From the NCBI GenBank assembly GCA_029780855.1, contig JAKOXV010000024.1, positions 1 to 41,274 of the forward strand: a stretch of 41,274 bases of DNA, given 5' to 3'. Of this stretch, positions 2,701 through 41,274 are shown one piece after another. A model generated the notes under the pieces. The model was given only the letters and a program-made list of their open reading frames with translations. It was not told where the DNA came from and ran no database searches. The translations under genes and the position numbers were made by a program. The stretch's first letter is position 1. Each line of letters opens with the position of its first letter. This stretch comes from a bacterium. GTDB lineage: Bacteria; Patescibacteriota; Saccharimonadia; Saccharimonadales; JAUPVS01.

Positions 2701-3924
2701 CTACTCCCGGCGGAGCGCATCTATTGGATTGATGTGTGCAGCTCGTCGGGAAGGGAAGAATACTACTAGTAGACCGACGATAACCATAAACCCTATCATC
2801 AACGCCACTAACCAAAGTGGCGTAGCGAAAAGCGTAAAGTTTTGGGATACGCCGCGATGGTGGGCATAGTTGTTAAGAATTACATTTAGGACCTTTCCAA
2901 CAATAACTGCACCGATGATTCCAATGATTGCTCCGGCGATGGAGAGTAGTACTGCTTCAAAAATAAATAGCTTACGCATATCACGGTTTCTACCCCCCAA
3001 TGCCATCATCAGACCAATCTCTCGCGTTCGCTCAAGTAGAGATATGGTCAGGGTATTAAACATACCCAGCACAGCAACAATCATGCCAATAGCACCAAAC
3101 CCAACGAGGATAAAGTTAAAGAACTTAAATATTTGGTTTACTTGATCCACCGTGTCAATTGGTGAACTGGTAGCAAAACCAAGGCTCTCAATCTGTCTCC
3201 GCAGCGGGTTAACGTTTTCACTTTTATCTGCCTCTATCTTGATCTGGTTATACACTTTGACACCAGCCACCTGAAACTCAGCGTTAGGCATGAACACTTC
3301 ACTACCAGATCCGGAATCAATTACGCCTATTACCGTGTAGGTATCACTCATCTCTGTTTTGTCTGCACTTCCACTTCTTAGGGGGATCCTAATTTCCAAC
3401 TTTTTATTGATCGCATTTTTGGCGTCTTTAATTCCTATGGATTCAAGCAAACTGTTATTTACTAGCACTGATTTTGTATCGGTTTTCTTCAAAAGTCGCC
3501 CCTTTGAAACACTCAGATTGGACATAACCTGGTAGTTTTCATCCACACCGTACACGATCGTATCTACTTCGCTACCTTGTAACTTTAAACTACCAGGGAA
3601 GGAGTAAGATGCACCGATGGTACCCACGTGCGGTAGGTTCTTTACTTTGTTGAAACTATCTTGATCCAGCTTCAGGATTCTCGAATTGGGAGTAGAGATA
3701 TCAATGGATTTTATTGATTGATTACCAATAATCTGGCTCGTCACTAGGTTTTGCAAACCTAACCCAAAGGATAGAAGAAAGAAAATTGCACCGATTCCAA
3801 TGACTACTCCAAAAATCGTTAAGAACGTTCTGAGCTTCTTATTGACCAGATTTCTAAATGCAATATGGGTCAGCACTCGGAATGAGATGCTTCCTTTTTT
3901 CGCTTTTTTTTCTTGCTCAGCCAT
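2701..3924 (-). CDS. ABC transporter permease (MacB/FtsX family)
   Basis: RTFLTIFGVVIGIG, ERTREIGLMMALG and PSRRAAHINPIDALRRE motifs. Confidence 0.93.
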   Translation of the reverse strand: MAEQEKKAKKGSISFRVLTHIAFRNLVNKKLRTFLTIFGVVIGIGAIFFLLSFGLGLQNLVTSQIIGNQSIKSIDISTPNSRILKLDQDSFNKVKNLPHVGTIGASYSFPGSLKLQGSEVDTIVYGVDENYQVMSNLSVSKGRLLKKTDTKSVLVNNSLLESIGIKDAKNAINKKLEIRIPLRSGSADKTEMSDTYTVIGVIDSGSGSEVFMPNAEFQVAGVKVYNQIKIEADKSENVNPLRRQIESLGFATSSPIDTVDQVNQIFKFFNFILVGFGAIGMIVAVLGMFNTLTISLLERTREIGLMMALGGRNRDMRKLFIFEAVLLSIAGAIIGIIGAVIVGKVLNVILNNYAHHRGVSQNFTLFATPLWLVALMIGFMVIVGLLVVFFPSRRAAHINPIDALRRE

Positions 3925-4717
3925 CTACCTTAACTCCCGTACTCTTCTTTTGTTTAGTTACTGAAAGGCGATCAATTCGGTCCTTCATATCCTGCATTAA
4001 TGCAGCGGTTGTTGACTGTATAGAATCGTGTTTCAGTTCCTCTACCTGTCCGTCAGAAATATGCAGCAGGTGATCGGCGAGCGGGAGGTACTCCATGTTA
4101 TGCGTCACTAGGATAATAGTACGACGGTACTCAGACTGGTATCGTTGCAACAAATCCATAATCATATCGCCGTTCTTACTATCCAAGCTTCCGGTAGGTT
4201 CATCAGCGATCAGAATCATCGGATCGTTAACCACTGCCCGAGCCATAGCAATTCTTTGTTGCTCACCTCCGGATAGTAGAATCGGATATTTTTTCGCATA
4301 ATTCTCCATACCGATGCGTTCCAGTGCAAGTTTAGCGAGGTCATTAGCCTCGGATCGTTTATAGCCAAGAAAATAGAGTGGCATAGAAACATTCTCGATA
4401 ACATTCAAACTATTGACCCAGAAGTTTTGTTGGTACACGATACCGATCCGGTGAGCCCTAAAGCGCGCCAGTTTATCTGGTTTAAACTGGTATACATCTT
4501 CGTCATTAAAGAGGATATTACCTTCTGATGGCCGCTGTAGACCAGTTAGGATGTTTAGGAGTGTCGACTTACCAGAGCCAGAAGGGCCGTATACTATATT
4601 GAAGGTATTGTTCGTAATCGCAAAGTTTACATCTTTTAGAACATGTATGGTTTCATCGCCAACGTGAAACGATTGAAAGATGTTTGTAGCTTTAATGAGG
4701 GTTTTGTTTAAATCCAT
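3917..4717 (-). CDS. ABC transporter ATP-binding protein (LolD/MacB family)
   Basis: GPSGSGKST, LSGGEQQR and ADEPTGSLD. True start probably MDLNKTL at 4717, right after the stop of the giant protein; the longer ORF call overlaps that gene. Confidence 0.92.
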   Translation of the reverse strand: MDLNKTLIKATNIFQSFHVGDETIHVLKDVNFAITNNTFNIVYGPSGSGKSTLLNILTGLQRPSEGNILFNDEDVYQFKPDKLARFRAHRIGIVYQQNFWVNSLNVIENVSMPLYFLGYKRSEANDLAKLALERIGMENYAKKYPILLSGGEQQRIAMARAVVNDPMILIADEPTGSLDSKNGDMIMDLLQRYQSEYRRTIILVTHNMEYLPLADHLLHISDGQVEELKHDSIQSTTAALMQDMKDRIDRLSVTKQKKSTGVKVDG

Positions 4718-39020: not shown

Positions 39021-39084
39021 GTGGTGGCAGGGAAGCCGATTGTTTGTCGCGACTGCAACGAAAACTTTGGCTCCCTGCCACCAC
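39021..39084. other. Long 3'-UTR hairpin with 13-bp perfect stem
   Basis: GTGGTGGCAGGGA (39021-39033) pairs with TCCCTGCCACCAC (39072-39084), 11 nt downstream of the minus-strand stop codon. Confidence 0.75.
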
Positions 39085-39095
39085 CATGGATCTGC

Positions 39096-39440
39096 TCAGA
39101 CCACGAGCGGCGGATCGAGCACGAAGCCCTTCACGCGCAGGATCTCGTGCGCCTCGCGGATGAAGAGCATCAGCTGACGGACGGACCGGCTGGTCTTGAT
39201 GGCCAGGTTGCCGGGCTCGGCTCCCTTCAGGGTGAGGGAGAACTCCGTGACGTCTCCGAGATCGAAGATCTCCCGGATGGCCTCGCGGATCGGGCCGGGC
39301 ATGCGCTCGCCGCTCTCGTTGGGACGATCGAGCGAGGTGAAGTGGCCGTGTCCGGTCACGTAGTTGCCGTCGAGGGGGATATGAACCCATCCTCCACGCC
39401 AGAGTCTCACCCGTGGTTTCACTGCGGTGCTTCCTGACAT
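39096..39440 (-). CDS. GC-rich hypothetical protein (114 aa)
   Basis: Start MSGSTAVK at 39440 behind GAGAAAGG. Codons are mostly G/C-ending (sample line 40/60 GC). Has its own promoter and terminator; no family recognised. Confidence 0.7.
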   Translation of the reverse strand: MSGSTAVKPRVRLWRGGWVHIPLDGNYVTGHGHFTSLDRPNESGERMPGPIREAIREIFDLGDVTEFSLTLKGAEPGNLAIKTSRSVRQLMLFIREAHEILRVKGFVLDPPLVV

Positions 39441-39468
39441 AGTCGGGGTACCTTTCTCTCGCATTGTA

Positions 39469-39519
39469 TGGCTACAGCTACCACCGGTAAGGGAACAGTA
39501 CCAGTAATAGCTATAGCCA
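39469..39519 (-). promoter_or_regulatory. 21-bp 5'-UTR hairpin
   Basis: UGGCUAUAGCUAUUACUGGUA pairs with UACCGGUGGUAGCUGUAGCCA. All four non-Watson-Crick positions are G-U on the minus strand, which points to an RNA-level structure on that strand. Confidence 0.75.
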
Positions 39520-39626: not shown

Positions 39627-39854
39627 CTACGCTTGAGCCTCAAAACGCTGGACTGCATCGGTGACATCTTTAGCTAATCGGTCTATCTTTTGTTCTAGCA
39701 GTTCAATCTCATCTTCTACATGGGCTAGCTTGGCGAGCGACGTCGCGGTCATACTCTTCAGCTTCTCGGCTTGGGCATTGGCGTCGTTAAGCCGAGCTTC
39801 GCTTTCATAAGGATCCCAAAAACTAAATTGTTCTTCATCAAAATTATCTGTCAT
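39627..39854 (-). CDS. Small coiled-coil hypothetical protein (75 aa), backbone-like GC
   Basis: MTDNFDEEQFSFWDPY...LAHVEDEIELLEQKIDRLAKDV heptads. The ATG directly follows HHR2; the longer 39995 start would run through the structured RNA. Confidence 0.55.
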   Translation of the reverse strand: MTDNFDEEQFSFWDPYESEARLNDANAQAEKLKSMTATSLAKLAHVEDEIELLEQKIDRLAKDVTDAVQRFEAQA

Positions 39855-39857
39855 TTT

Positions 39858-39915
39858 TGCTACCTTTCGTCCTTTTGGACTCATCAGCGTAAGCACACAC
39901 TTACGGAGGATAGCA
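39858..39915 (-). ncRNA. Type III hammerhead ribozyme (HHR2)
   Basis: Minus strand reads UGCUA-u-CCUC^CGUAAG-ugugug-CUUACG-CUGAUGA-GUCC-aaaa-GGAC-GAAAGG-UAGCA. Complete core, CUC triplet, stem I 6 bp, stem II 4 bp, stem III 8 bp with one bulged U. Predicted cut between 39906 and 39905. Confidence 0.92.
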
Positions 39916-40046
39916 CGGAGTGGTTGATTCAGAAGAGGGAAGAGTCTTACGCTGGAGGCGTAATGCTCGATTCCATTCTGAACCAACACACTCACGTGAC
40001 CTGAAATTCAGGATTTGTGAACGGATGTTCCGTTCAGGAGGGAAGG

Positions 40047-40295
40047 TCAGCCGTTGGCGACCTTCCCGGCGACGACGACGACGGCACCCGGCTCGAGCTG
40101 GTCGTCGGGCTCGATCTGGCGGCCGTTGGCCGTGATGGCCTTGCCGCCGGAGATGTCCACCCCCGCCTTGTCCAGGTACCCACCGGCGGTGAGCCCCGGC
40201 TCGTAGTCGAGGGTCTGGCTGTCACCGCCGAACTCGGCGATCCGAACCGTCCCGGCCGGGACGACCTCGTCCGGCGTCAACACGTCTGCTGCCAT
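40047..40295 (-). CDS. Ubiquitin-like (beta-grasp, ThiS/MoaD-like) protein ending in Gly
   Basis: 82 aa with beta-grasp pattern (T....L...G.......ITANG......QL.PG.VVVV) and C-terminus KVANG. SD AAGGAG; directly downstream of an E1-like gene. Confidence 0.8.
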   Translation of the reverse strand: MAADVLTPDEVVPAGTVRIAEFGGDSQTLDYEPGLTAGGYLDKAGVDISGGKAITANGRQIEPDDQLEPGAVVVVAGKVANG

Positions 40296-40308
40296 GATGC
40301 ACTCCTTC

Positions 40309-40965
40309 TCACGTTGTTGAGAACTGCATGGTCTTGAGGTCCGACATGATGTTGCTTCGGTACGACTCCTTTCTAATGAAGAGGGTGAGCTGCGCCACCA
40401 TCAGTCCCGCGAGGGTGGTGGGTGGATGAATCACCGTCCGGGCTGCACAAGGCAGCTCGGCCGCTTCCTCATCCGGGAAGAGCCACTGCTCGTACTCCGC
40501 CTGGGCATCGAAGTCCGACGGATTGAGTGACAGTAGCTGGAACTGCTCGCCACCGATGCGACCGTCCATGAAGAACGGCACCAGTGGGTTGAACTTCACC
40601 GCCTGCCAGATGCCCATACGGCTGGCCATGGAATCCACACCGGCGATCACCACACCACTGAGTTCTGACGTCGAGGTGACGTGCTCCTCGTGGATGGTGA
40701 CCTCACAGGTGGAACCCTGGCGCTCGACAAAATCCATGGCCGCTTTGGCCTTGGACATGCCGATGTCGTCGGGACGGTAGATGAGCTGGGCCGGGATGTT
40801 GTGCGGCTCCACCTCATCACTGTCCCAGAGCACCAGATCCTTGATGCCGAGCTTCATCAGCGGCAGCAGTACGGCAGAGCCGATACCGCCCAGGCCGACG
40901 AGGTGCACCGGCCAAGCGAAGGCCTCGGGATCGAAGATCTTCAACTGATCACCGTAGTCGATCAT
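40309..40965 (-). CDS. ThiF/MoeB/E1-family adenylyltransferase
   Basis: VGLGGIGS, WDSDEVEPHNIPAQ, IG.SKA, GVDSM.SR and DGRIGG. Candidate catalytic Cys in AELPCAAR; no CxxC zinc sites. Confidence 0.9.
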   Translation of the reverse strand: MIDYGDQLKIFDPEAFAWPVHLVGLGGIGSAVLLPLMKLGIKDLVLWDSDEVEPHNIPAQLIYRPDDIGMSKAKAAMDFVERQGSTCEVTIHEEHVTSTSELSGVVIAGVDSMASRMGIWQAVKFNPLVPFFMDGRIGGEQFQLLSLNPSDFDAQAEYEQWLFPDEEAAELPCAARTVIHPPTTLAGLMVAQLTLFIRKESYRSNIMSDLKTMQFSTT

Positions 40966-41274
40966 CAGTCATCACCGACCCTCAGAGCAAGCGGCTCCAG
41001 GGAACCGGCGAACAGCAGCACATCATCCTGCCTCACCGAACGGTTGGGCAGGAGCGGACGGTGCTGCTTGACCTTCCGGGCGATCTCCCGCCGGCACTCG
41101 TCCTGGATGAGGACATCCGAGGGAACCCGCACCCGCAGCTGGAGCGGCGTCCAAGCCCTGTAGGGCCTGAACATGTCCAGACGCAGATCGAACTCCCCGC
41201 GCTTGTTCAGCACCAAGCTGACCATCCAGTCCGCCTGGTAGTCCTCGATGTTCCGAAGATCCACCGAGGAGAAG
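40965..41274 (-). CDS. JAB/MPN-domain metallopeptidase, 3' part only (runs off window end)
   Basis: The frame is open to the window edge and begins FSSVDLRNI...WMVSLVLNKRGE. This fits the S-x2-D tail of the JAMM motif and the following strand. The HxH lies outside the window. TGATG overlap with the E1 start. Confidence 0.65.
   Translation of the reverse strand, partial: FSSVDLRNIEDYQADWMVSLVLNKRGEFDLRLDMFRPYRAWTPLQLRVRVPSDVLIQDECRREIARKVKQHRPLLPNRSVRQDDVLLFAGSLEPLALRVGDD

What the first reader, a model, noticed from the sequence alone, without database searches (positions are those of the whole stretch)
40047..41274. JAB-E1-Ubl bacterial ubiquitination-like operon with non-backbone (GC-rich) codon usage
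Seen: a JAB-like gene and a ThiF-like gene are translationally coupled (TGATG) and followed by a beta-grasp protein with an exposed single C-terminal Gly (VANG). The E1 has a candidate catalytic Cys and no Zn sites, and no thiamine, molybdopterin or sulfur-relay genes are nearby. Established: Ubl, E1, JAB (and E2) operons such as Bil, Bub and PRTRC-type loci are linked to protein conjugation, and Bil is anti-phage. Inference: a protein-tagging system, with an E2 expected upstream of the window. It could act in defence or on host proteins.
Basis: partly seen in the sequence, partly recalled or inferred. Interest (0 to 1): 0.75.

Follow-up and report, generated by a model that had tools for sequence, protein, structure and literature searches.

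The report
Membrane-anchored ubiquitin-like tagging cassette
A small mobile four-gene cassette in a tiny-genome (Saccharibacteria-type) bacterium encodes a full ubiquitin-like protein-tagging kit whose E2-type enzyme sits in the membrane; the kind is known from bacterial anti-phage systems, but this membrane-bound version has not been described in the papers I searched.

Summary
On the minus strand lie an 82-aa beta-grasp protein ending in Asn-Gly, a 218-aa ThiF-type E1 and a JAB peptidase cut by the window end. The contig continues. The JAB is complete (206 aa) with the E...HxH...S..D motif. The predicted upstream E2 exists as the C-terminal UBC-fold domain, with an invariant Cys, of a 438-aa membrane-anchored coiled-coil protein.

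The order E2-like, JAB, E1, Ubl recurs. All four genes are present in 29 of 37 related loci, 31 of them titled Saccharibacteria. No thiamine or molybdopterin genes were found in the neighbourhood or the genome.

The cassette is foreign here. GC is 58.5% against 48.5% in the flanks. It lies in a ~9-kb strain-specific insertion, between 93-bp exact direct repeats, with its own promoter and a hammerhead-like 3' end.

Best reading: a Bil/PRTRC-like Ubl conjugation system. It fails the membership tests of Bil, Bub and PRTRC, so I class it a new variant of a known kind. Its biological role (defence or other) is open. This scan noted the same cassette before on other DNA.

The parts
40047..40295 (-). 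Ubl: 82-aa ThiS/SAMP2-like beta-grasp protein ending in Asn-Gly with no extension
   Evidence: ORF. A profile of 20 homologues hits P. furiosus PF1061 (2e-4) and SAMP2 (5e-4) in PDB sequences. The C-terminal N-G is invariant. Of 36 Ubls in related loci, 30 end exactly at NG. The fold itself was not modelled.
40309..40965 (-). Minimal E1: 218-aa ThiF-type adenylating enzyme with crossover-loop Cys173 and no Zn site
   Evidence: Pfam ThiF 5.8e-23. Invariant GxGGIG, D50, K72, D111, R116 and C173. C173 aligns with ThiF Cys184, and the CxxC is absent.
40965..41274 (-). JAB/JAMM metallopeptidase, C-terminal ~102 residues. The whole gene is 206 aa and runs to contig C15 position 41585, in the same numbering as the window
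   Evidence: Full ORF. E36, H96, H98, S106 and D109 are invariant in 28 of 28. The profile hits Rpn11 at 3.6e-9 and P. furiosus JAMM1 at 1.1e-7. Pfam Prok-JAB scores only 19.1 bits, below its cut-off of 25.
41274..41274 (-). Marker for the parts that lie beyond the window end, given in contig C15 positions (same numbering as the window):
(a) 41585-42901, minus strand: 438-aa membrane-anchored coiled-coil protein with a C-terminal UBC/E2-fold domain (residues ~300-438, invariant Cys391).
(b) 43050-43078, minus strand: promoter-like TTGAAA-17-TATAAT, about 150 nt upstream of (a).
(c) 43158-43250: copy 2 of the 93-bp exact direct repeat.
   Evidence: (a) ORF. Its stop overlaps the JAB start as TAATG, and it has three hydrophobic segments. 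AF2 full-length model pLDDT 81.5; domain model pLDDT 94.9. Fold searches return E2/UEV/RWD chains. Invariant V324, D350, G352, R370 and C391.
(b): 11 of 12 consensus positions. 7 sites were found in the region, against a mean of 2.1 in shuffles. This is a consensus match only.
(c).
39913..40005 (.). 93-bp exact direct repeat, copy 1, just 3' of the Ubl gene
   Evidence: The genome holds exactly two copies.
39850..40046 (-). Structured 3' untranslated region: a hairpin after the Ubl stop, a long hairpin within the 93-nt repeat, and a hammerhead-like three-way junction (core 39865-39907)
   Evidence: The fold is -77.4 kcal/mol with z -7.8. Rfam Hammerhead_3 scores 29.2 bits, E 0.0041, below the gathering score of 48.5. 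A local fold shows stems I-III around CUGAUGA...GAAA.

Best explanation
The finding is the 3' three-quarters of a self-contained, horizontally mobile four-gene operon for ubiquitin-like protein conjugation.

Proposed mechanism; the steps are inferred from family chemistry and none is shown here:
1. The 218-aa ThiF-type E1 adenylates the exposed C-terminal Gly82 of the 82-aa Ubl and takes it onto its crossover-loop Cys173 as a thioester.
2. The Ubl passes to the invariant Cys391 of the UBC-fold domain at the C-terminus of the 438-aa membrane-anchored coiled-coil protein. That domain most likely faces the cytoplasm.
3. This E2-like enzyme attaches the Ubl to lysines of targets at or near the membrane, without a separate E3.
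4. The JAMM peptidase removes the tag. In the minority of relatives whose Ubl carries one or two extra residues, it also trims them.

My odds: conjugation machine about 0.7. As to its role, a conflict function (anti-phage or anti-mobile-element defence, by analogy with Bil) about 0.45, and control of some envelope process of the cell about 0.3.
For: Shown by tools:
- All four components are present, intact and translationally coupled.
- E1 catalytic residues and Cys173 are invariant, and Cys173 aligns with ThiF Cys184.
- The full JAMM motif is invariant in 28 of 28, and the JAB profile hits Rpn11 and JAMM1.
- The Ubl ends in an invariant Asn-Gly, and its profile hits SAMP2/PF1061.
- Ubl relatives on viral contigs pass Pfam ThiS, at 27.6 and 28.2 bits against a cut-off of 22.5.
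- The C-domain model has pLDDT 94.9 and the E2 order of elements: a1, beta-meander, a loop holding P-x-Y and then Cys 7 residues later, and three helices.
- In an unbiased scan of 48,161 chains, by their titles at least 46 of the 50 best rows are E2, UEV, UFC1 or RWD domains. They include the bacterial CdnG-E2 (Z 5.5, 119 aligned) and Cap2 (Z 5.3).
- 44 of 45 listed Foldseek rows are E2/UEV entries.
- All four genes occur together in 29 of 37 loci.
- No sulfur or cofactor genes lie beside the cassette in 9 loci. There is no ThiG or MoaE in the 97.8%-complete genome.
- Membrane anchoring is conserved: 121 of 130 family representatives of 350 aa or more have at least 2 hydrophobic segments.
Against: - The E2 assignment rests on fold only. 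Z is 4.4-6.5 and the Foldseek E-value is 0.03 or worse, a range in which the tool warns that a match may mean only a common arrangement.
- No E2 family appears among the Pfam or NCBIfam families shown for 26 members.
- PF14460 and TIGR03737 find nothing in the genome, and PDB profile searches find nothing for the domain.
- The HPN motif of classical E2s is absent, and no His is invariant.
- I could not obtain a residue-level superposition, so the equivalence of Cys391 to the E2 catalytic Cys is by topology only.
- Three hydrophobic segments with an N-in start would put the E2 domain outside the cell. Only the Arg/Lys cluster after the third segment argues for a cytoplasmic location.
- The Ubl fold was not modelled.
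- Defence context is weak: clear defence neighbours occur in 1 of 9 loci.
- Five of 37 loci lack the JAB, so it is dispensable in some lineages.
Confidence: 0.7

Rival explanations
1. E2-independent, SAMP-like conjugation. The E1 alone transfers the Ubl to targets, as archaeal UbaA does with SAMPs. The 438-aa membrane protein would then be a non-catalytic UEV/RWD-type adaptor, scaffold or main target that brings the system to the membrane.
For: - The JAB and Ubl profiles hit the archaeal JAMM1-SAMP2 pair best among small prokaryotic systems.
- The best single structural match of the domain is the catalytically dead UEV Mms2 (Z 6.5), and RWD domains score equally.
- There is no HPN motif and no sequence link to E2 families.
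Against: - Cys391 is invariant in 26 of 26 and 25 of 25 sequences, within a conserved F-C-F-G, at the topological place of the E2 cysteine. UEV and RWD domains lack such a Cys (from knowledge).
- The gene is translationally coupled to the JAB and present in 34 of 37 loci.
Confidence: 0.13
2. A sulfur-carrier system. The E1 activates the Ubl to a thiocarboxylate for the synthesis of a sulfur-containing metabolite, with the JAB as a processing peptidase, as in CysO-Mec or thioquinolobactin pathways.
For: - The E1's best single PDB hit is E. coli ThiF (1.5e-9), and its best NCBIfam rows are ThiF models.
- The Ubl family is ThiS-like.
Against: - All ThiF/MoeB NCBIfam scores are far below their cut-offs, for example 59.1 against 275.
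- There is no rhodanese domain or Zn site in the E1.
- No sulfurtransferase or biosynthetic gene lies beside the cassette in the own island or in 9 other loci.
- ThiG and MoaE are absent from the genome.
- Most Ubls need no processing.
- A conserved Cys-bearing UBC-fold partner has no role in such pathways.
Confidence: 0.05
3. The same conjugation chemistry, but serving a phage or other mobile element rather than the cell, for example by modifying virion, host or rival-element proteins. The chromosomal copies would then be remnants or cargo of such elements.
For: - E1 relatives (26-41% identity) lie on 17 IMG/VR viral contigs. JAB is found in 14, Ubl in 6 and an E2-domain protein in 5 of the 17.
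- The E1 matches PHROG 15670 over nearly its full length (2.5e-16).
- The nearest ESM-Atlas clusters and BFVD structures of the E2 domain are uncharacterised phage proteins.
- The own copy lies in a ~9-kb insertion that also holds a VirD4-type coupling-protein gene.
Against: - In a quick E1 tree, 16 of 17 viral rows sit across a 98% SH-aLRT branch from the 34 genome rows and the own E1. The Saccharibacteria cassettes are therefore a separate lineage.
- Flanks in 9 loci are mostly housekeeping genes, with no phage structural genes.
- VirD4 lies nearby in only 2 of 37 other loci.
Confidence: 0.1
4. Assembly or binning artefact: the GC-rich cassette belongs to another organism and was joined to this contig through the 93-bp repeat.
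For: In the probable source run, Logan contigs break at the repeat on both sides of the cassette, so no listed piece bridges backbone and cassette. The repeat alone has depth 40.6, against 9.8-13.6 for its flanks.
Against: - Depths of the cassette (13.6) and the neighbouring contigs (9.8, 12.8) are alike.
- Other GC-rich patches are physically continuous with backbone genes within single contigs.
- The cassette carries an AT-rich host-type promoter.
- Its closest relatives are all in Saccharibacteria genomes.
- The 93-bp repeat has only these two copies in the genome.
Confidence: 0.02

Closest known systems
Bil systems (BilABCD; row '6d', and '6c' for Type II, of Iyer, Burroughs and Aravind 2006). 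Anti-phage: they conjugate a Ubl to the phage central tail fibre
   Same: Four separate genes for Ubl, E2-like, JAB peptidase and E1. There is no E3, and the chemistry is Cys-based. The Ubl ends at, or one residue before, a conserved Gly. The cassette is mobile and sporadic. PADLOC BilD is the E1's best defence-model hit (2.4e-12). Sources: passages of PMC1779556 and of 10.1101/2023.09.26.559546; for 10.1101/2023.09.04.556158 only the abstract start in the listing.
   Different: - Gene order is E2-JAB-E1-Ubl here, against Ubl-E2-DUB-E1 in Bil.
- The E1 has 218 aa with no inserted CYS domain, and the BilD model matches only residues 20-121.
- The E2-like domain sits on a membrane anchor and coiled coil and lacks the conserved His after the Cys.
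- There are no PADLOC hits for the Ubl, JAB or E2.
PRTRC cassettes of plasmids and ICEs (NCBIfam TIGR03735-03742). Uncharacterised: 45 papers mention the name in the listing, none of which I read
   Same: A small ThiF (~245 aa model), a small JAB (PRTRC_A), an E2-like protein (PRTRC_B) and a small Ubl, all on mobile DNA. The sizes of E1 and JAB are closest to these. PRTRC_ThiF and PRTRC_A give weak hits.
   Different: - Scores are far below the curated cut-offs: 35.1 against 144.75, and 12.8 against 101.8.
- PRTRC_B finds nothing in the genome.
- No confirmed ParB partner is present.
- The host range is Saccharibacteria rather than Proteobacteria.
Archaeal SAMP / UbaA / JAMM1 sampylation
   Same: A ThiS-like Ubl and a small JAMM peptidase. 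The profile matches to P. furiosus SAMP2/PF1061 and JAMM1 are the best small-protein hits. The E1 is a simple MoeB/ThiF-type enzyme with a crossover-loop Cys.
   Different: Sampylation has no E2 (from knowledge), whereas here a conserved Cys-bearing UBC-fold protein is part of the operon. NCBIfam SAMP-activating E1 scores 42.1 against a cut-off of 450.
Type II CBASS Cap2/Cap3 and 6A-MBL
   Same: E1, E2 and JAB chemistry in bacterial defence. The Cap2 E2 domain and CdnG-E2 appear among the structural matches (Z 5.3 and 5.5). E1-E2 PADLOC models hit the E1's ATP-binding half.
   Different: In CBASS the E1 and E2 are fused and the 'Ubl' is the C-terminus of a CD-NTase. There is no free Ubl and no membrane anchor, and no cyclase or effector gene is present here.
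Bub (6E) pathways
   Same: A bacterial Ubl-E2-E1 conjugation pathway with a peptidase, suspected to be antiviral (passages of PMC11601596).
   Different: Bub uses Ubl-E2 and JAB-E1 (or E2-E1) fusions, a DUF6527 serine protease, and Tyr/Ser oxyester intermediates. Here the genes are separate, both catalytic positions hold invariant Cys, and no DUF6527 was found among the island's ORFs.

Membership tests
ThiF/MoeB/E1 superfamily (Pfam PF00899) | Score above the Pfam gathering cut-off; nucleotide-binding GxGxxG and catalytic Asp/Arg | tested here: met
   81.7 bits against 28.1. GxGGIG, D50, D111 and R116 are invariant in 22 of 22.
ThiF / MoeB equivalogs (sulfur-carrier adenylyltransferases) | NCBIfam equivalog cut-offs; Zn-binding CxxC pairs; partner biosynthetic genes | tested here: not met
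   Best scores are 59.1 against 275.25 (TIGR02356) and 54 against 159 (NF006395). The CxxC is absent. There is no ThiG or MoaE in the genome.
JAMM/JAB metallopeptidases | E...HxH...S..D zinc and catalytic motif | tested here: met
   E36, H96, H98, S106 and D109 are invariant in 28 of 28. The profile hits Rpn11 at 3.6e-9.
Pfam Prok-JAB (PF14464) | Gathering score of 25 bits | tested here: not met
   19.1 bits, E 0.0012, matching the motif region only.
UBC/E2 superfold | a1, four-strand meander, active-site loop, then C-terminal helices | tested here: met
   Domain model at pLDDT 94.9. By title, at least 46 of the 50 best of 48,161 chains are E2/UEV/UFC1/RWD, and 44 of 45 Foldseek rows are too. 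Scores are modest: Z up to 6.5 and E 0.03 or worse.
Catalytic E2 enzymes | Invariant Cys in the loop before helix 2 | tested here: inconclusive
   Cys391 is invariant and lies between the last strand and helix 2, seven residues after a conserved P-x-Y. No residue-level superposition was available.
Classical E2 (Pfam UQ_con) and Prok-E2_A-E | HPN motif, or a match to the family models | tested here: not met
   No E2 family appears among the 25 families shown for 26 members, and any family not shown was matched by at most one member. PF14460 finds nothing in the own genome. The HPN motif is absent.
Bil (BilABCD) | Separate Ubl, E2, JAB and E1 genes | tested here: met
Bil (BilABCD) | Gene order Ubl-E2-DUB-E1; multidomain E1 with a CYS domain; E2 with Cys plus a conserved downstream His | tested here: not met
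   The order is E2-JAB-E1-Ubl. The E1 has 218 aa and the BilD model matches residues 20-121 only. No His is invariant in the E2 domain. There are no PADLOC hits for the other three proteins.
Bil (BilABCD) | Anti-phage activity by Ubl conjugation to phage proteins | not testable with these tools
PRTRC system | NCBIfam cut-offs for PRTRC_ThiF, PRTRC_A and PRTRC_B | tested here: not met
   35.1 against 144.75. 12.8 against 101.8. TIGR03737 gives no match in the genome.
PRTRC system | Associated ParB-family protein | tested here: inconclusive
   The neighbouring 372-aa ORF gives only GmrSD_N at E 0.058. Of 120 listed homologues, 1 carries PF03235.
Bub (6E) | Ubl-E2 and JAB-E1 (or E2-E1) fusions, a DUF6527 protease, and Tyr/Ser catalytic residues | tested here: not met
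   The genes are separate and both sites hold invariant Cys. DUF6527 is not among the Pfam hits of the island's ORFs.
ThiS/MoaD/SAMP beta-grasp Ubls | Beta-grasp fold with a C-terminal Gly | tested here: inconclusive
   The C-terminal Gly is invariant. The profile hits PF1061 and SAMP2 at 2e-4 and 5e-4. The own protein has no Pfam hit, though viral relatives pass Pfam ThiS. The fold was not modelled.
Hammerhead ribozyme type III (Rfam RF00008) | Gathering score of 48.5 bits | tested here: not met
   29.2 bits, E 0.0041. The core CUGAUGA...GAAA and three stems do fold.

The most novel reading that the evidence does not exclude
Saccharibacteria and other small-genome bacteria carry a family of Ubl-conjugation machines whose E2 is built into the cell membrane on a coiled-coil stalk. 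The machine would tag proteins at the envelope, either incoming phage parts or the cell's own secretion, pilus or host-contact apparatus.

In this genome it travels as a discrete gene cassette with its own promoter, bounded by 93-bp recombination repeats and ended by a self-cleaving ribozyme. That would be an integron-like way of moving whole operons.
Probability: 0.2. Interest if true: 0.8.

Novelty: new variant of a known kind. Interest (0 to 1): 0.5.

Why it matters
Bacterial Ubl-E1-E2-JAB operons have recently been shown to be real conjugation systems, and at least one (Bil) is antiviral. All characterised ones are soluble.

This is a compact version: the E1 has only 218 aa, the Ubl is ready-made, and the E2-type domain matches no current Pfam, NCBIfam or PADLOC model and is tethered to the membrane. 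The domain family is sizeable, with 903 cluster representatives at E 1e-3 or better. It is common in Saccharibacteria, organisms that live attached to host bacteria and whose envelope biology and phage defence are poorly known.

If it conjugates, it offers a minimal system for E1-to-E2 transfer without a CYS or UFD domain. It would also be a first case of membrane-localised Ubl tagging in bacteria.

Tried and rejected
- Complex prediction of E1, Ubl and the E2-like domain (job accepted, collected): no verdict (score 0.02, mark 0.32). It counts neither for nor against binding.
- Expression: no RNA holder was listed for the stretch. Nothing was laid from two metatranscriptome runs of the probable source study.
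- tRNA as an integration site: ARAGORN found none in 16 kb. The 93-bp repeat is not a tRNA.
- Rfam at gathering score on L005 and 9 other cassette loci: only 4 tRNAs and no hammerhead. A ribozyme end is therefore not a shown feature of the cassette elsewhere.
- My own regex scan for hammerhead cores in the genome returned 0 because the stem test was badly written. I disregard it.
- The search for related loci with the E2-domain alignment failed for lack of a conserved stretch. I used the E1 alignment instead.
- Plasmid tblastn with the E1: 232 records, all under 60% identity. The 30 listed are annotated MoeB/ThiF/HesA and none is labelled PRTRC; 202 were not listed.
- PDB sequence-profile searches for the membrane protein and for its C-domain found nothing meaningful.
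- VirD4 linkage: found in only 2 of 37 other loci, so I rejected it as a conserved partner.
- HGT from a high-GC actinobacterial host: considered at first and dropped, because every close homologue is from Saccharibacteria-type genomes.
- The careful maximum-likelihood tree did not finish, so only the quick tree is reported. In that tree the one E1 ORF under 150 aa was left out and long ORFs were cut to their last 235 residues.
They are now described under a marker at the window's last base.
Full report
WHAT IS IN THE WINDOW.
On the minus strand at the window's right end lie three ORFs:
- 40047-40295: 82 aa, ending ...V-A-N-G-stop.
- 40309-40965: 218 aa.
- 40965-41273: open at the window end.

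The last two overlap by one base (TGATG), and an AAGGAG precedes the first. GC is 0.62 in 40001-41000, against 0.41-0.53 in the other 1-kb bins. The 218-aa protein is a clear ThiF-family member (Pfam 5.8e-23). The other two have no Pfam, NCBIfam, PADLOC or PHROG hit on their own.

BEYOND THE WINDOW.
The window is bases 1-41274 of a 116,975-base contig of an 872-kb genome that is 97.8% complete. I fetched 36001-52000 as L005. L005 coordinate plus 36000 gives window numbering.

The cut ORF is a 206-aa protein holding W-H-S-H...S..D, and upstream of that motif a Glu. A further 438-aa ORF precedes it and overlaps it by one base (TAATG). So the operon has four translationally linked genes, at 40047-42901.

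THE FOUR PROTEINS.
E1:
- In 22 aligned homologues the GxGGIG loop, D50, K72, D111, R116 and Cys173 (in L-P-C-A-A-R) are invariant.
- The printed alignment to E. coli ThiF puts Cys173 on the ThiF Cys that I count as residue 184. That this is the crossover-loop Cys which bonds ThiS is recalled, not tested.
- The alignment shows A-E-Y-E-Q where ThiF has its G-C-Y-R-C zinc motif.
- All ThiF/MoeB/UbaA/PRTRC NCBIfam scores are far below their cut-offs.

JAB:
- E36, H96, H98, S106 and D109 are invariant in 28 of 28.
- The profile finds Rpn11 (3.6e-9) and P. furiosus JAMM1 (1.1e-7) among PDB sequences.
- The single protein stays under the Prok-JAB cut-off, at 19.1 against 25 bits.

Ubl:
- The C-terminal Asn-Gly is invariant.
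- The profile finds PF1061 and SAMP2 (2e-4, 5e-4).
- Ubl relatives on viral contigs pass Pfam ThiS.
- I did not model its fold.

The 438-aa protein:
- It has three hydrophobic segments (about 26-56, 143-166 and 179-202) and an Arg/Lys cluster after the third.
- The AF2 model (pLDDT 81.5) shows a long helix at 235-297 and a compact C-terminal domain.
- Folded alone with 25 homologues, that domain reaches pLDDT 94.9. Its order of elements is helix, beta-meander, a loop containing P-x-Y and seven residues later the invariant Cys (F-C-F-G), then three helices.

IS IT AN E2?
For:
- Foldseek against the PDB lists 45 rows. All but one (a designed protein) are E2 or UEV entries or complexes that contain one. 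The E-values are 0.033 or worse, and the best TM-scores are 0.42-0.46, to TSG101 UEV.
- A scan that does not lean on Foldseek, over 48,161 chains, gives 50 rows. By their titles at least 46 are E2, UEV, UFC1 or RWD-type domains. That RWD and kinetochore RWD-like domains share the UBC-like fold is from my knowledge.
- The best rows are Mms2 (Z 6.5, rmsd 3.8, 115 aligned) and Knl1 RWD (Z 6.5). The bacterial CdnG-E2 (Z 5.5, 119 aligned) and Cap2 (Z 5.3) are present.
- The full-length model gave the same picture.

Against:
- Every Z is under 8, a range the tool says can reflect only a common arrangement.
- No sequence method links the domain to a known E2 family.
- There is no HPN motif and no invariant His.

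I therefore take the fold as established. The catalytic role of Cys391 is a strong inference from its invariance and its place in the fold.

CONSERVATION.
- The E1 has at least 150 homologues at 43-73% identity. Of the 8 listed rows that carry an organism name, 7 name Saccharibacteria-type taxa and 1 names Binatia.
- A scan of one genome per species gave 37 loci. By title 31 are Saccharibacteria-type, and 6 are other (Nomurabacteria 2, Parcubacteria 1, Binatia 1, 'Gammaproteobacteria' MAGs 2).
- With profiles of my alignments, all four genes are present in 29 of the 37 loci. The E2 domain is in 34, the JAB in 30 and the Ubl in 35.
- The usual order is E2-JAB-E1-Ubl. Five loci have E2-E1, four of them followed by a Ubl, with no JAB. 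One locus has two cassettes in tandem.
- Of 36 Ubls, 30 end at Asn-Gly, 4 have one more residue, 1 has two more, and 1 differs.
- The E2-domain profile finds 903 cluster representatives at E 1e-3 or better, and 164 at 1e-30 or better.
- Of the best 150 representatives, 130 have 350 aa or more. Of those, 121 have at least two hydrophobic segments. The membrane anchor is therefore part of the family.

CONTEXT AND MOBILITY.
- Distribution. The E2-domain profile is found in only 1 of 40 related genomes, and in 0 of 8 of the same family.
- Insertion. In three same-family genomes, gltX is followed within 0.14-1.5 kb by homologues of the genes that here lie 9 kb further on. Contig positions ~38.9-48.1 kb are thus an insertion, which also holds a VirD4-type gene.
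- Composition. Cassette GC is 0.585 against 0.485 in the flanks. The cassette is GC-richer than its flanks in 32 of 37 other loci.
- Repeats. An exact 93-bp direct repeat lies just 3' of the Ubl gene (39913-40005) and again 5' of the cassette's promoter (43158-43250). These are its only two copies in the genome.
- Promoter. A near-consensus promoter lies at 43050-43078.
- 3' end. The 3' UTR is unusually stable (z -7.8). It ends in a hammerhead-like motif that scores 29.2 bits, under Rfam's gathering score. That motif resembles two sites 27 kb away which earlier notes of this scan call hammerheads.
- Reads. In the probable source run, independent contigs break at the repeat. One 3,212-bp contig is the cassette alone, and depths are alike at 9.8-13.6.
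- A possible circle. A low-depth 260-bp contig of another study joins the cassette's two ends through one repeat, as a circle or tandem copy would. Because the repeat (93 bp) is longer than the assembler's word, this may be a false path.
- Neighbours elsewhere. In 9 other loci the flanking genes are mostly housekeeping. None is for sulfur transfer or cofactor synthesis. Clear defence neighbours (AbiTii, a Fic-type gene) appear in one locus.
- Own genome. It lacks ThiG and MoaE.

VIRAL RELATIVES.
- E1 relatives at 26-41% identity lie on 17 IMG/VR contigs, with JAB in 14, Ubl in 6 and E2-domain proteins in 5.
- The nearest ESM-Atlas clusters and BFVD models of the E2 domain are uncharacterised phage proteins of similar length.
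- In a quick tree, 16 of the 17 viral E1s lie across a well-supported branch from the Saccharibacteria group. The own E1 pairs with L006.

MECHANISM AND RIVALS.
The parts fit a thioester relay: E1 Cys173, then E2-like Cys391, then target lysine, with the JAB as eraser. This is inferred from the known chemistry of the families, and nothing here shows conjugation. The rivals, with my odds:
- E2-independent sampylation, with the membrane protein as adaptor (0.13).
- Use by a phage or other mobile element (0.10).
- A sulfur carrier (0.05).
- An assembly artefact (0.02).

COMPARISON WITH WHAT IS KNOWN.
The kind (Ubl, E2, JAB, E1 operons) was predicted in 2006 (passages of PMC1779556). It has since been shown to conjugate and to defend against phage in Bil (passages of 10.1101/2023.09.26.559546; for 10.1101/2023.09.04.556158 only the abstract start). 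A diverged form is Bub (passages of PMC11601596).

This cassette meets the component list. It fails Bil's gene order, E1 architecture, E2 His and models. It fails Bub's fusions and Ser/Tyr chemistry, and it fails PRTRC's curated cut-offs.

Searches for it in print found nothing on point:
- Saccharibacteria with ubiquitin-like: 2 papers, neither about it.
- Patescibacteria with ubiquitin and ThiF: 0 papers.
- Candidate phyla radiation with ubiquitin-like or JAB: the three top papers that hold the CPR term were not read.

Supplementary operon tables of the Bil and Bub papers were not seen and could list such operons.

Earlier notes of this scan describe the same four-gene cassette and its membrane-anchored E2 on other genomes. 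So the scan has found this before. One note's link to Prok-E2_D/PRTRC_B was not reproduced by my sequence tests.

VERDICT.
This is a new variant of a known kind, of moderate interest.

Noticed in passing
window 39913-40005, and contig C15 43158-43250 (L005 3913-4005 and 7158-7250): A 93-bp exact direct repeat brackets the cassette. Each copy sits at the 3' end of a GC-rich transcription unit and contains a long hairpin. The genome holds only these two copies.
   Followed up: partly
window 39865-39907, minus strand: A hammerhead type III-like motif (CUGAUGA, stem II, GAAA, three stems) lies right after repeat copy 1. It scores 29.2 bits, below Rfam's gathering score. It shares a 24-nt exact core with two sites at C15 ~67.4 and ~68.1 kb that earlier notes call hammerheads.
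   Followed up: partly
L005 7079-7157 joined to 3913-4093 (run X2): One 260-bp low-depth contig from another study joins the cassette's two ends head to tail through a single repeat, as a 3,245-bp circle or tandem copy would. It may be a false de Bruijn path, because the repeat is longer than the assembler's word.
   Followed up: partly
contig C15 ~38,932-48,081: A ~9.1-kb strain-specific insertion lies between gltX and a conserved gene block, and the site is empty in three same-family genomes. It holds the cassette, three other GC-rich patches and a VirD4/TraG-type coupling-protein gene of backbone composition.
   Followed up: yes
contig C15 44100-45218 and 43333-44100, minus strand: This is a GC-rich gene pair. 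The ~354-372-aa protein belongs to a large family of unnamed proteins (621 hits), with named members from Saccharibacteria, Uhrbacteria and Parcubacteria. Its only family hint is a faint GmrSD_N/DUF262 match. The 255-aa partner has no family. Homologues of both lie downstream of the cassette in L006 only.
   Followed up: partly
window 39050-39500: A separate GC-rich patch (62-65% GC) has 146-aa ORFs on both strands and no family match. I could not tell which strand codes.
   Followed up: no
window 39627-39857, minus strand: A small low-GC ORF (about 76 aa from the internal ATG), predicted coiled coil, starts a few bases after the hammerhead-like motif. The longer 122-aa reading would run through the ribozyme motif and the repeat.
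   Followed up: no
L013 (two cassettes in tandem); L012 and several representatives (two E2-like domains in one protein); L039 (two E2-like genes, Ubl first): The cassette or its E2-like domain is duplicated in some genomes.
   Followed up: no
L028, L030, L034, L040, L042: These are JAB-less variants. The E2-like proteins are shorter in four of the five loci (264-284 aa). All four Ubls found there end exactly at Asn-Gly; no Ubl was found in L040.
   Followed up: no
L006 116-1816: Next to a related cassette lies a 566-aa protein with prokaryotic phospholipase A2 and ricin-type lectin domains.
   Followed up: no
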